The position numbers are program-made. Source: a virus. Taken from it: 18,497 bases of DNA. Positions 3,001-6,000 of the stretch are shown here, piece by piece; positions within the stretch are counted from its first letter, which is position 1; each line of letters opens with the position of its first letter. The DNA is taken from the UHGV virus genome UHGV-0380155. One strand, written 5' to 3'.

Positions 3001-6000
3001 CCTGCCCTCCTCCTTAGCCTTTTCCTTCAATTTTTCTTTAATCTCTGGCGGGATACGAATCCCTAATGGAGCGATGTCTCTAACTTTCATTTCCACCTCA
3101 CTTGCTACACCGTGATAACTAAATACTACACCGTGTTTATTTAAAGTCAAAAATTTTTTGCCTACACTGTGTAGCTACGCACAGCGTGCAGGAGGAGAAA
3201 TGAAAGGTGCAAGAGATATCAGTCCATTGGGGATTAGGATTCCAGACTATTTAAAGAAACGCATTCAGCAAGAAGCGGATAAAAACGGCAGATCAATGAA
3301 CTCAGAGATCGTGCTTATCCTTCAAAAACATGTTGATAATCTTGATGGCTCTCGCTCACTTGAAGGATTCGCTAACCAAGAAGCTGATAAATTCAAAGAG
3401 GCGCTACTTGAGACGCTAAAGACCATGTATGCTAAGGATGAAAAATAATGCTGCACACAATTCATTTCTTATGCCCCGTTAACACTGCCACTGTTGGGCA
3501 ACTTCAGAACCACTGTCTCACCGCATTATCTCAAGGCGCAACTGAATTAAATATCCATATATCAAGTCAGGGAGGGGAAACTGCCGCTGGCTTTACTGCG
3601 TATAACTTTCTTAAGTCACTCCCTGTTACCGTTAGAACTCACAACATAAGCAATGTTGAATCCATAGCTAATATCGTTTTCCTGGCTGGCTCAGAACGTT
3701 TCGCAAACCCATTATCAAGATTCCTGTTACATCCTCTATTATGGTGCTTTGCCTCCCCAGCCGCCGACCATGCCAGATTGAGAGAGTACGGGAAATGCCT
3801 CGATAACGATCTTGATCGCTTCGTTGAGACGTTCAATATCGACATCGGAACCCATATTAGGTGGGCATCCCTGATAGCAGACTCGACCATTTTGGATGCT
3901 AACAAGGCTCTTGAGCATGGCATAATTAATTCCATAAAAACTGCAAGGCTGGCATCCAATCAGGCAAACTGGTGGGTTGTTTGATGGGTAAATCATGATT
4001 ACTCCTTATAAAAAACCCACCTGACGGTGGGCATAATCCATTACTGCGAAAGTTTATTAATGGAAAGGAAACCGCCAAAATTGCCGACATTCCTGCGCAG
4101 TTCACACCCGCGCATGCACTTGCTGCATCTGTCCTTACGGATATCCGTGGTGGGGTTGTCGAACTCATCCGCCACAGCCCCGCCCGTGTAACCACACTCA
4201 TCAGAGCGGTAGGTCCACATACAGGTGTTCGCCAGCATGATGCGACCAGGAAACAGCGCCCCGTCCGTCTCGGTCGGTGTCGCCAGCACAAACGAGGCCG
4301 TCATGGCCGTCAGCTCTGACATCTGCTCCACCACCCAGCGGTCGCTCAGCTCCTGCTCCGGGTCTGCCTTCGGATTGCCCGCAACGAAATTCACCGCATC
4401 CAGAAAACGCCCATACACCCGACGGCGGACCACCGTGGCCCCCACCAGACTCTGCAGGTCTTCCGCCATCCCGGTGACCAGACCGAACAGATTGGACACC
4501 GTCAGCAACGGTCTGGCACTGCTGCCCTTCCCGCTCATCTGAAAACCGCTGCCGTCAATCGGGTATGCCTGATATTGCCGCCCCTGCCAGGTGACCGGCT
4601 CCCCTTTTTCATTCAGCTCATTACAGAAAAAATACCGCTCACCGCCCTGCACCGTCAGGTCAATTTCCCAGAGCACCACCCGCGGTGACTGCTCTGATTT
4701 AACCGACTCGTTCAGACTTTCTTCGTGGATCTCCTGCATAAACTTCCACCCATAAAAAAGGGGCGCAATGCGCCCCGAACAAAAAAGTTCAATTAAAAAT
4801 CGAAAGCAATGAAGGTAATAAAATGAAAATTAAATCGGCTAATTGCCGTTTGCAGTGACCGGTGAAAACTATACTTTCACCGATACAGACCATCTGTGAG
4901 GGCAGATGGTCTGTATTTGTTCACTCACCAGTTATCATCAGAACTGATAAGTCATACCAACGGCAACGATATTATCCGTTGCAACACCTGCATCCTGGGT
5001 AAACTGACTTTCATCAATCAGATTGATTTTATAATCAACATAGGTGGACATATTTTTATTAAAATAATATGTTGTACCCACATCAATATATTTAACCAGA
5101 TCCTGATTGCCATAGTTTTTACCACCGACAATTATATCCTGAGCACGAGACTGCAGGAACGCCAGAGATGGACGCAAACCGAAATCAAACTGATACTGTA
5201 ATACCGCTTCAAAGTTCTGGGCTTTATCTGCCACCCCTTTGTCGCCAAAGGTCGTCATATTCTGAGTCTCAGAATATATTGTCGCCAGATAAATGTTGTT
5301 GGCATCATATTTAAGCCCGGTGCCCCACATCTCAGCGTGTTTACCTTTTGCAACACTGCCGGAATCAACAACTGTTTGAGTACCGTTTACTGTTTGCGTA
5401 CCATTCAGGCCTTTCACCTGATTGTTGGTACGGTCTGCGTTAGTATATGCAGCCACGATACCAAAACCTTCATATTCATAACTGGCAGAGAAACCATAAC
5501 CATCACCATTAGCTTCCTGAAGGTCATCACGTTCATTCTTGCCCTGATACTGAGCTGCAAAATTCAGGCCATCAACAAGTCCAAAGAAATCAGTATTACG
5601 GTAAGTCGCCACACCAGAAGTACGGGCAGTCATGAAGTTATCGGTCTGGGTCCAGCCATCACCACCAAACTCTGGTAATACGTCGGTATAAGCACCAACA
5701 TCATACGCAATACCATAGTTACGACCATAATCAATGCTGCCAAAGTCACCGAACTTCAGACCTGCAAACGCCAGACGAGTCTTATTACCCGCAGCACCGT
5801 CTGATTCAGTTTTATTACCAGAGAACTGATATTCCCACTGACCAAAACCGGTCAGTTGATCATTAATCTGAGTTTCACCTTTAAAGCCCAGACGTGCATA
5901 TGTCCGATCACCATCATTTCCCTTATCGCTGGAGAAATAATGCAGTGCCGTTACACGTCCATACAGATCAAGCTTATTGCTATCTTTGTTATATACTTCC

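What the first reader, a model, noticed from the sequence alone, without database searches (positions are those of the whole stretch)
4754..4937. Long structured porin 3' region, possibly an IpeX-like sRNA
About 180 nt separate the porin stop from its terminator. The region contains a perfect 12-bp inverted repeat (ACAGACCATCTG-N6-CAGATGGTCTGT, 4885-4914) and a second short hairpin (4863-4885). In the DLP12 prophage the nmpC 3' region encodes the IpeX sRNA, which down-regulates host porins; an analogous 3'-UTR-derived RNA is plausible here.
Basis: partly seen in the sequence, partly recalled or inferred. Interest (0 to 1): 0.5.

Follow-up and report, generated by a model that had tools for sequence, protein, structure and literature searches.

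The report
Prophage porin tail with anti-porin RNA
The ~190-nt stretch after a prophage-borne porin gene is a conserved, folded RNA whose open segment is complementary to the ribosome-binding regions of the host's ompF and ompC mRNAs, so it looks like a second, unrelated-in-sequence version of the known phage RNA IpeX that lets a phage swap the host's porins for its own.

Summary
The porin gene (4938-6074, -) is a moron between tail genes M and L of a lambdoid E. coli prophage.

Its 3' region holds a perfect 14-bp hairpin, a 10-bp hairpin, two smaller ones, about 55 unpaired A/U-rich bases and a Rho-independent terminator.

Ten variants from E. coli genomes and IMG/VR keep 99.2% of stem cells paired. 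Eight pairs show compensatory changes. Twenty-six G·U cells fit only the porin-sense strand.

The best-conserved unpaired bases (UUAUUACCUU, GGUCACUGC) are antisense to host porin leaders. Against 169 K-12 start regions, ompF and ompC rank 3rd and 5th for this window, and 1st/2nd (or 1st/5th) for sister variants. IpeX, MicF and MicC controls behave the same way.

It is not a sequence relative of IpeX, and it misses the MicF model (26.6 vs 79 bits). Chromosomal relatives of the porin have only short 3' ends.

Verdict: an IpeX analogue, a new variant of a known kind. Expression, processing and repression remain untested.

The parts
4938..6074 (-). Porin gene (378 aa from the first ATG; RefSeq homologues start 3 nt later). 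It is the parent transcript of the 3' element.
   Evidence: ORF list. Pfam Porin_1 matches full length, 1-337/337, E 2.8e-142. Annotated as 'porin OmpC' in identical E. coli prophages.
4923..4952 (-). SL0: an 11-bp hairpin whose loop contains the UGA stop codon (4938-4940).
   Evidence: MFE fold. Present in all 7 sequence classes. A<->G changes in the 3' arm keep pairing as G·U.
4883..4916 (-).
   Evidence: Three pairs have compensatory double changes and 98.6% of cells are paired. The loop is CCCUCA/CCCUUA, the same as in one IpeX hairpin.
4860..4882 (-). SL2: a 10-pair stem with a 3-nt loop.
   Evidence: Four pairs have compensatory double changes and 100% of cells are paired.
4852..4860 (-). 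Invariant linker GGUCACUGC. It is complementary to GCAGUGAUC in ompF (+22..+30) and to GCAGUGGC in the ompC leader and in ompA.
   Evidence: 100% identity across the 10 variants. Pairings appear. Whether this is a functional second contact is inferred only.
4833..4851 (-). SL3: a short stem (core CGGC/GCCG). It is extended by a 13-nt insert in most sister variants.
   Evidence: RNAalifold. One compensatory pair and 98.6% of cells paired. It is not formed in the single-sequence MFE of the window.
4808..4835 (-). Single-stranded antisense segment (core UUAUUACCUU at 4811-4820). It is predicted to pair with ompF -17..+10 and ompC -14..+13.
   Evidence: Unpaired in the MFE and in the consensus fold. 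96% column identity. Duplexes and ranks. Sub-threshold MicF model hit over 4751-4837.
4786..4798 (-). UUUUAAUUGAACU: a 13-nt perfect complement of the porin's own 5' leader (6085-6097).
   Evidence: inverted repeat 4783-4821 / 6062-6100. The complementarity is kept in 4 classes, but covariation is not significant.
4754..4776 (-). Rho-independent terminator: a 7-bp all-G/C stem, a 3-nt loop and U6.
   Evidence: The stem is invariant in all variants.
6085..6097 (-). Own-leader segment AGUUCAAUUAAAA, just upstream of the porin Shine-Dalgarno sequence. It is the partner of 4786-4798.
6168..6184 (-). TTTACATTTTGTTGCAT: resembles the OmpR box C1 of ompC, and is a candidate part of the moron's own promoter region.
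   Evidence: Alignment with the K-12 ompC upstream region. Nearly invariant among the homologues. That it binds OmpR is an inference.
4041..4739 (-). Tail gene L, whose ribosome-binding site starts right after the terminator's U tract. It marks the downstream edge of the moron.
   Evidence: Pfam Phage_tail_L, E 1e-90. Annotated homologues.
6277..6618 (-). Tail gene M. It marks the upstream edge of the moron.
   Evidence: Pfam Phage_min_tail, E 9.7e-29. Annotated homologues.

Best explanation
The porin gene with its 3' region is a self-contained moron inserted between tail genes M and L of a lambdoid E. coli prophage. I propose the following mechanism.

1. In the lysogen the porin is transcribed from its own promoter, which is probably OmpR-responsive, and transcription stops at the terminator at 4754-4776.
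2. The last ~190 nt of that transcript form a regulatory RNA domain. Stem-loops SL0-SL3 give it a stable, nuclease-resistant body. About 55 A/U-rich bases between SL3 and the terminator stay single-stranded.
3. That single strand looks like an inverted copy of a porin leader. It pairs with the Shine-Dalgarno/start region of host ompF and ompC mRNA, either while still part of the porin mRNA or after cleavage into an sRNA of roughly 90-190 nt.
4. Pairing blocks translation or speeds decay of the host porin mRNAs, so host porins are replaced by the phage porin.
5. The likely benefit is exclusion of phages that use OmpC or OmpF as receptor.

Shown here: the RNA structure is under selection on the sense strand; the antisense segment is the most conserved unpaired part; ompF and ompC are its best or near-best predicted targets.

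Inferred: expression in lysogens, processing, any role of Hfq, actual repression, and the benefit.
For: Anatomy:
- Inverted repeats, folds, terminator.

Conservation and covariation:
- 111 of 5426 E. coli genomes carry the element at 75-100% identity, always between M and L. 32 IMG/VR contigs also carry it.
- In 10 distinct variants, 38 pairs are 99.2% paired. Eight pairs have changes on both sides (17 cells), and 0/500 shuffles reach this. Slid controls give 37-46% paired.
- 26 G·U cells make the antisense strand only 92.3% paired.
- Unpaired GGUCACUGC is 100% conserved and the seed 96%, against 73% for the SL2 and SL3 loops.

Target prediction among 169 K-12 start regions (accessibility-corrected duplex energy):
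- Window variant: ompF #3 (-11.2 kcal/mol) and ompC #5 (-10.7).
- L003 type: ompF #1.
- L004, L006, L007 and L008 types: ompC #1 (-12.4 to -14.1 kcal/mol, site -37..-5) and ompF #2.
- phoE and ompN are not targeted in any type, and ompA only reaches rank 7-15 in the window and L003 types.
- Positive controls behave as expected: MicF gives ompF #1, MicC gives ompC #1, IpeX gives ompC #1 and ompF #3.

Reverse control:
- None of 168 real gene-downstream segments matches both targets as well as the element does.

Other support:
- Both target regions are >=99% identical in about 99% of E. coli genomes.
- The Rfam MicF model aligns end to end at 26.6 bits through the shared UUUAUUACCKUCAU and the terminator.
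- Chromosomal OmpD/NmpC-like porins of other genera go from stop codon to terminator in 20-45 nt. The long structured tail is therefore an addition specific to phage porins.
Against: - There are no expression data of any kind.
- No promoter-like site lies inside the 3' region, so a separate sRNA would need processing, which is untested.
- For this window's variant the predicted energies are moderate. Three of 168 control segments do as well on ompF and 5 of 168 on ompC. Unconstrained duplex shuffles give only 59/1000 for ompC.
- Two unrelated genes (ydaW, atoB) rank above ompF.
- The family is young, with 10 variants in about 6 classes, so conservation of the seed could partly reflect lack of time.
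- Complementarity could be a relic of an inverted duplication of a porin leader.
- The porin's own leader is also complementary to the 3' region, which could compete with trans targets.
Confidence: 0.6

Rival explanations
1. A purely cis-acting 3' end. The hairpins only protect the porin mRNA from 3' exonucleases, and the terminator only insulates the moron from the tail operon. The complementarity to ompF/ompC is then a functionless relic of how the cassette was assembled.
For: - Stable hairpins plus a strong terminator are classic mRNA-stabilising features.
- The antisense stretch resembles an inverted porin leader, including the gene's own leader.
- The predicted energies for this variant are not extreme.
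Against: - Chromosomal relatives of the porin manage with one terminator 20-45 nt after the stop codon.
- The unpaired antisense bases are better conserved than the hairpin loops.
- The two sequence subtypes of the seed both keep ompF and ompC in the top 5 of 169.
- An unrelated-in-sequence phage porin tail, IpeX, has the same design and is reported to repress OmpC/OmpF.
Confidence: 0.22
2. A cis 5'-3' interaction. The 3' region pairs with the porin mRNA's own leader (4786-4798 with 6085-6097) to tune the phage porin's own translation or stability, rather than acting on host mRNAs.
For: - The window has 13 perfect base pairs, and 12-13 bp (8 bp in the L004 class) are kept in the cognate pairs of four classes.
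- 87.5% of cells are paired against 25-60% when the partner is slid.
- The window's longest long-range inverted repeat is this one.
Against: - Covariation is not significant: 288/500 shuffles reach the observed pairing, and only one cell has a change on both sides.
- One variant (L005) breaks a pair.
- The most conserved unpaired bases lie elsewhere, at 4811-4820 and 4852-4860.
- This reading does not exclude trans action.
Confidence: 0.1
3. A DNA-level element, such as a recombination or insertion site, a protein-binding palindrome or a cruciform that marks the moron boundary.
For: A perfect 14-bp palindrome lies at a mosaic junction of a phage genome.
Against: - 26 G·U cells pair only on the porin-sense strand (99.2% vs 92.3%).
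- Compensatory changes keep the stems while the sequences change, which argues against a sequence-specific protein site.
- The palindrome lies 160 nt inside the moron, not at its edge.
Confidence: 0.03
4. A captured copy of the host micF gene, that is, a true MicF family member relocated behind the porin.
For: The Rfam MicF model is the best hit. It aligns over its full length (1-94) at 4751-4837(-).
Against: - The score is 26.6 bits against a gathering threshold of 79, with E about 0.05 in a 261-nt search.
- The match rests on the anti-ompF core and a generic terminator.
- The commoner sister variants give no MicF hit at all.
Confidence: 0.03

Closest known systems
IpeX (167-nt RNA in the 3' region of nmpC/lc of prophage DLP12 and phage PA-2)
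   Same: - It lies between a prophage porin stop codon and its Rho-independent terminator.
- It has several stable stem-loops, then an A/U-rich single strand, then the terminator.
- One hairpin carries the identical loop CCCUCA/CCCUUA.
- The single strand is predicted to pair with the ompC and ompF leaders, with ranks 1 and 3 of 169 for IpeX against 3 and 5, or 1 and 2, here.
- The terminator regions are weakly alike.
   Different: - There is no detectable sequence homology outside the terminator.
- The parent porin is only 72% identical.
- The moron sits in the tail operon between M and L and is co-oriented with it. nmpC sits between Q and the lysis genes on the opposite strand.
- This element is far rarer: 111 against 2510 of 5426 E. 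coli genomes.
- The hairpin order and sizes differ.
MicF (RF00033), the chromosomal antisense RNA against ompF
   Same: - Its anti-ompF core UUUAUUACC(G/U)UCAU covers the ompF Shine-Dalgarno and start region.
- Its Rho-independent terminator lies about 50 nt downstream.
- The length of the putative 3' module (~87 nt) is similar.
   Different: - The element fails the Rfam threshold (26.6 vs 79 bits).
- The predicted duplex is shorter and weaker: Ehyb -18.9 kcal/mol against -27.4 for MicF.
- The element is embedded in an mRNA 3' end rather than being a free-standing gene divergent from ompC.
- Most variants prefer ompC.
MicC, the chromosomal antisense RNA against ompC
   Same: The commoner sister variants (L004 to L008 types) are predicted to pair with ompC -37..-5. 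This overlaps the MicC site at -31..-14 and extends over the Shine-Dalgarno sequence.
   Different: There is no sequence or model similarity. The window's own variant pairs at -14..+13 instead.
3'-UTR-derived sRNAs that share the parent mRNA's terminator (e.g. CpxQ, SroC, DapZ; from general knowledge)
   Same: The regulatory domain ends at the mRNA's own terminator, and no internal promoter-like site was detected.
   Different: Processing, Hfq binding and a discrete sRNA species are not shown for this element.

Membership tests
IpeX | Located between the stop codon of a prophage-encoded porin gene and its Rho-independent terminator | tested here: met
   Porin stop at 4938-4940 and terminator at 4754-4776, both on the minus strand. 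Prophage context.
IpeX | Sequence homology to the 167-nt IpeX of DLP12/PA-2 | tested here: not met
   blastn (word size 11) gives no cross-hits in either direction. MAFFT aligns only the two ends. nhmmer profiles match only the ~40-nt terminator region, at 7.6-10 bits for the sister variants and with no real match for the window's own element.
IpeX | Parent gene is nmpC/lc in the Q-lysis moron site of a lambdoid phage | tested here: not met
   The parent porin is 72% identical to the NmpC type. It lies between tail genes M and L. nmpC lies between quuD and essD on the opposite strand.
IpeX | Lowers OmpC and OmpF synthesis post-transcriptionally | not testable with these tools
   Only in-silico evidence is available: ompF ranks #3 and ompC #5 of 169 for the window, and #1/#2 or #1/#5 for sister variants. 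This is comparable to IpeX itself.
IpeX | Made as part of the porin transcript and processed from it | not testable with these tools
   No promoter-like site lies within 4740-4990 on the minus strand, which is consistent with this feature but does not prove it.
MicF (Rfam RF00033) | Covariance-model score at or above the gathering threshold (79 bits) | tested here: not met
   26.6 bits, E 0.05-0.08. The L006-type variant gives no hit.
MicF (Rfam RF00033) | Antisense pairing across the ompF Shine-Dalgarno and start codon | tested here: met
   Predicted duplex of 4808-4829(-) with ompF -17..+10: Ehyb -18.9 and Etot about -11.2 to -11.7 kcal/mol. This is a prediction only.
3'-UTR-derived sRNA (terminator shared with the parent mRNA) | A stable RNA species whose 3' end is the mRNA terminator, generated by an internal promoter or RNase E cleavage and usually Hfq-bound | not testable with these tools
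   The terminator with its U6 tail and an upstream A/U-rich single strand are present. No data exist on RNA species or Hfq.
Phage moron (own promoter and terminator inserted between genes that are adjacent in related phages) | Insertion between two neighbouring core genes, ending in its own terminator | tested here: met
   Tail gene M ends at 6277, the porin cassette follows, and the L start codon is at 4739 directly after the terminator.
Phage moron (own promoter and terminator inserted between genes that are adjacent in related phages) | Own promoter active in the lysogen | tested here: inconclusive
   A conserved OmpR-box-like TTTACATTTTGTTGCAT lies upstream. The consensus scan reports no sigma-70 site on the minus strand upstream of the porin.

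The most novel reading that the evidence does not exclude
Phage porin morons may carry modular, retargetable anti-porin riboregulators built by inverted duplication of a porin leader. In this reading the same 3' domain pairs with its own 5' leader (closing the phage porin mRNA) and silences host ompF/ompC. The two seed subtypes (CAUUUUAUUACCUUCAUUG, which favours ompF, and CUGUUAUUACCUUUAUUGG, which favours the MicC site plus Shine-Dalgarno of ompC) would be evolutionary retargeting. IpeX and this family would be two independent or very old solutions sharing a CCCUYA anti-Shine-Dalgarno loop. Together this would be a one-transcript 'porin swap' cassette used for superinfection exclusion.
Probability: 0.25. 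Interest if true: 0.7.

Novelty: new variant of a known kind. Interest (0 to 1): 0.5.

Why it matters
IpeX has stood alone as the example of a phage porin transcript whose 3' end shuts down host porins, and its mechanism was left unclear. A second family makes the design look like a general strategy: one transcript both supplies a new porin and removes the old ones. This family is unrelated in sequence, has clear covariation, and has explicit predicted pairing to the ompF and ompC ribosome-binding regions.

It gives a clean test system, because seed and compensatory mutations can be designed. It also points to a predicted pairing site for IpeX itself. Finally, it bears on phage receptor availability and on antibiotic permeability in the roughly 2% of E. 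coli genomes that carry this prophage module, many of them Shiga-toxin-producing or clinical isolates.

Tried and rejected
- Rfam at gathering thresholds finds nothing in the region. Rfam has no IpeX family at all, since the K-12 IpeX locus gives no hit. The best sub-threshold hit is MicF at 26.6 bits, rejected as membership.
- The phage GenBank collection has no match to the 3' region.
- A three-motif pattern found nothing in 185,579 species-representative genomes. I could not widen the family beyond E. coli prophage sequences.
- Unrestricted RNAduplex on whole RNAs gave meaningless 100+ nt duplexes. I replaced it with windowed, accessibility-corrected energies.
- The small ORF on the plus strand (MKIKSANCRLQ, from the ATG at about 4824) is not conserved in sister variants and was rejected as coding.
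- No internal promoter was found. A weak TTGCCA-17-TAACTT exists only in the variants carrying the SL3 insert, and nothing is reported in the window.
- 5'-3' UTR covariation was tested formally and is not significant.
- The original IpeX paper (PMC1347279) is not held. IpeX properties therefore come from reviews.
- Literature searches for a tail-module phage porin or its RNA found nothing relevant.
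Full report
**What is there**

The window's porin ORF runs 4938-6074 on the minus strand. It is a full-length Porin_1 protein. On that strand the stop codon UGA (4940-4938) is followed by about 184 nt up to the end of a Rho-independent terminator. The terminator is GGGGCGC-AUU-GCGCCCC at 4776-4760, followed by U6. The start codon of the next gene, tail protein L, lies at 4739, right after the U tract.

It has 14 perfect pairs (4883-4896 / 4903-4916) with loop CCCUCA. The second hairpin is at 4860-4882. Folding the sense strand gives -65.1 kcal/mol against -39.0 +/- 4.1 for shuffles (z = -6.35). With the last codons included, z = -7.3, and a further hairpin (SL0) appears that holds the stop codon in its loop. 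About 55 nt between the third small hairpin and the terminator are unpaired in every fold.

**Context**

The flanking genes are lambda-like tail genes. The tape measure gene is at 6611-9853, M at 6277-6618 and L at 4041-4739. In annotated E. coli genomes that carry an identical 3' region, the order is tape measure - M - porin - L - K - I - J.

The porin with its upstream region and its terminator is therefore a moron inserted exactly between M and L. In this window a second insertion follows L. It holds a ClpP-like gene, a KilA-N/P22AR antirepressor and a sar RNA match.

**Relatives**

Near-identical copies of the 3' region occur in 9 of 5426 complete E. coli genomes. Diverged copies (75-86% identity) occur in 102 more, always between M and L. 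32 IMG/VR contigs carry it. None is in the GenBank phage collection, and none is in species-representative genomes. Together they give 10 distinct sequences in about six classes.

**Is the structure selected?**

Yes. RNAalifold recovers SL1, SL2, SL3 and the terminator. For the 38 pairs of that structure:
- 99.2% of 379 cells form standard pairs.
- 8 pairs show changes on both sides (17 cells).
- No shuffle out of 500 reaches the observed pairing or covariation score.
- Sliding the partner by 1-3 columns drops pairing to 37-46%.

Twenty-six cells are G·U. On the opposite strand they would be C·A, so pairing falls to 92.3% there. The structure is therefore an RNA structure of the porin-sense transcript, not a DNA palindrome or an antisense RNA. 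SL0 is also kept in all classes through A<->G changes that preserve G·U pairing.

**What the unpaired part looks like**

The best-conserved unpaired bases are GGUCACUGC (4852-4860, 100% identity) and the stretch around UUAUUACCUU (4811-4820, 96%). The SL2 and SL3 loops are only 73% conserved.

The reverse complement of the single strand reads like a porin leader:
- Element (reverse complement): caATGAAGGTAATAAA-ATGAAAATTAAA
- ompF: ccATGAGGGTAATAAAtaATGATGAAG
- ompC: caGAGGGTTAATAAcATGAAAGTTAAA

The Rfam MicF model aligns to 4751-4837 over its full length through this core and the terminator. The score is only 26.6 bits against a threshold of 79.

**Target prediction with controls**

I scored windowed duplex energies corrected for the opening energy of both RNAs. 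The targets were 169 start regions (-60..+40) taken from four 50-kb stretches of K-12, plus the phage porin's own start.

| RNA | Result among 169 start regions |
|---|---|
| MicF (control) | ompF #1 |
| MicC (control) | ompC #1 |
| IpeX (control) | ompC #1, ompF #3 |
| Window variant | ompF #3 (-11.2 kcal/mol, site -17..+10), ompC #5 (-10.7 kcal/mol, site -14..+13) |
| L003 class | ompF #1, ompC #5 |
| L004, L006, L007, L008 classes | ompC #1 (-12.4 to -14.1 kcal/mol, site -37..-5, covering the MicC site and the Shine-Dalgarno sequence), ompF #2 |

phoE and ompN are not preferred in any class, and ompA reaches only rank 7-15 in the window and L003 classes.

In the reverse control, 168 real 190-nt gene-downstream segments stood in for the element. 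Three did as well on ompF and five as well on ompC as the window's element. None did as well on both.

The two target regions are >=99% identical in 5397 and 5366 of 5426 E. coli genomes, so K-12 stands for the real hosts.

The caveat is that the window variant's energies are moderate. Two unrelated genes rank above ompF, and an unconstrained shuffle test gives 4/1000 for ompF but only 59/1000 for ompC.

**Comparison with IpeX**

The K-12 nmpC 3' region (IpeX) has the same plan: three stem-loops, an A/U-rich single strand and a terminator, with z = -9.4. One of its hairpins has the same loop, CCCUCA (CCCUUA in E. albertii). The same C/U alternative is seen here. That loop is the complement of UGAGGG in the ompF Shine-Dalgarno region.

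The two families are nevertheless not alignable. blastn finds 2510 genomes with IpeX and 111 with this element, and I saw no cross-hit among the rows listed. MAFFT matches only the ends. nhmmer profiles match only about 40 nt around the terminator at about 10 bits.

The parent porins are 72% identical. The morons sit in different modules and orientations.

[quoted passage not shown] They disagree on Hfq. The original paper was not available. This element is therefore an analogue of IpeX, not a member of its sequence family.

**Is the long tail special?**

Yes. The closest chromosomal relatives of the porin are OmpD/NmpC-like proteins at 66-70% identity. They occur in Enterobacter, Citrobacter, Salmonella, Lelliottia and Klebsiella. 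All go from the stop codon to a simple terminator within 20-45 nt. Only the two phage-borne types carry 170-200 nt structured tails.

**Secondary observation**

The 3' region is also complementary to the porin's own leader. The window has 13 perfect pairs (4786-4798 with 6085-6097). The longest long-range inverted repeat in the cassette is 4783-4821 / 6062-6100. Cognate leader/tail pairs of three further classes keep 8-13 pairs. A formal count, however, shows no significant covariation: 87.5% paired, with 288/500 shuffles as high.

This fits an origin of the antisense segment by inverted duplication of a porin leader. It leaves open a cis 5'-3' interaction.

**Mechanism proposed**

In the lysogen the moron is transcribed from its own promoter. 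An OmpR-box-like TTTACATTTTGTTGCAT is conserved upstream. Transcription ends at the terminator. The structured body stabilises the 3' domain.

The single strand, possibly helped by the CCCUCA loop and GGUCACUGC, pairs with the ompF and ompC start regions and lowers their translation. The phage porin, whose own Shine-Dalgarno region (UAAGGAAC) differs, replaces the host porins. The likely payoff is exclusion of OmpC- or OmpF-dependent phages.

The structure and the complementarity are shown here. Every step from transcription to repression is inferred.

**Verdict**

This is a real, conserved RNA element. It is a new variant of a known kind and of moderate interest.

Noticed in passing
window 2890-2955 (+), with 2187-2888 (-) and 3448-3984 (+): A full-length Rfam sar RNA match (67.6 bits, E 2e-12) abuts a KilA-N/P22AR antirepressor gene. 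A ClpP-like gene lies next to it on the other strand. Together they form a second insertion between tail genes L and K. The same arrangement occurs in a dozen E. coli genomes (13 cover at least 80% of the query).
   Followed up: partly
window 6168-6184 (-), and alignments A2/A5: TTTACATTTTGTTGCAT lies upstream of the phage porin. It is nearly invariant among the homologues and resembles the OmpR-binding box C1 of K-12 ompC (TTTACATTTTGAAACAT). This suggests the moron is under EnvZ/OmpR control like ompC.
   Followed up: partly
window 4786-4798 (-) and 6085-6097 (-): There is a 13-nt perfect complementarity between the porin mRNA's 3' region and its own 5' leader. Eight to thirteen pairs are kept in three other sequence classes, but covariation is not statistically significant.
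   Followed up: yes
window 4923-4952 (-): A hairpin encloses the porin stop codon in its loop. Its 5' arm is coding sequence (Thr-Tyr-Gln-Phe). Its 3' arm changes only by A<->G, which keeps G·U pairing in all classes.
   Followed up: partly
L002 894-924 (-) (K-12 IpeX nt 109-139) versus L010/L125 ompC leader -32..-6: IpeX itself has an extended predicted duplex with the ompC leader (Ehyb -26.4 kcal/mol). It overlaps the MicC site and the Shine-Dalgarno sequence and ranks 1st of 169 start regions. A review held here says IpeX regulation does not rely only on complementarity.
   Followed up: partly
window 4897-4902 (-); L002 ~966-971 (-); L198 (E. albertii): The same 6-nt hairpin loop, CCCUCA with a CCCUUA variant, occurs in this element's SL1 and in one IpeX hairpin, although the stems are unrelated. 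It is the complement of UGAGGG in the ompF Shine-Dalgarno region.
   Followed up: no
alignment A4, columns ~135-157 (window 4803-4825): The seed has two subtypes. The window and L003 types read CAUUUUAUUACCUUCAUYG and favour ompF. The L004 to L008 types read CUGUUAUUACCUUUAUUGG, favour ompC -37..-5, and resemble the IpeX seed CUGUUAUAUAUUACCCUUUAUU.
   Followed up: partly
window 4015-4032 (-): A terminator-like hairpin (GCCCACCGTCAGGTGGGT followed by T6) lies directly after tail gene L, at the border of the second insertion. It is also a palindrome that could serve the convergent ClpP-like gene.
   Followed up: no
loci L129-L144 (Enterobacter, Citrobacter, Salmonella, Lelliottia, Klebsiella): Chromosomal OmpD/NmpC-like porin genes end in a short 3' region (20-45 nt) with a single terminator of the AAAGCCAGCC...GGCTGGCTTTTT type. 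In many of these genera (Enterobacter, Citrobacter, Salmonella, Lelliottia, Huaxiibacter) a conserved small downstream gene follows.
   Followed up: no
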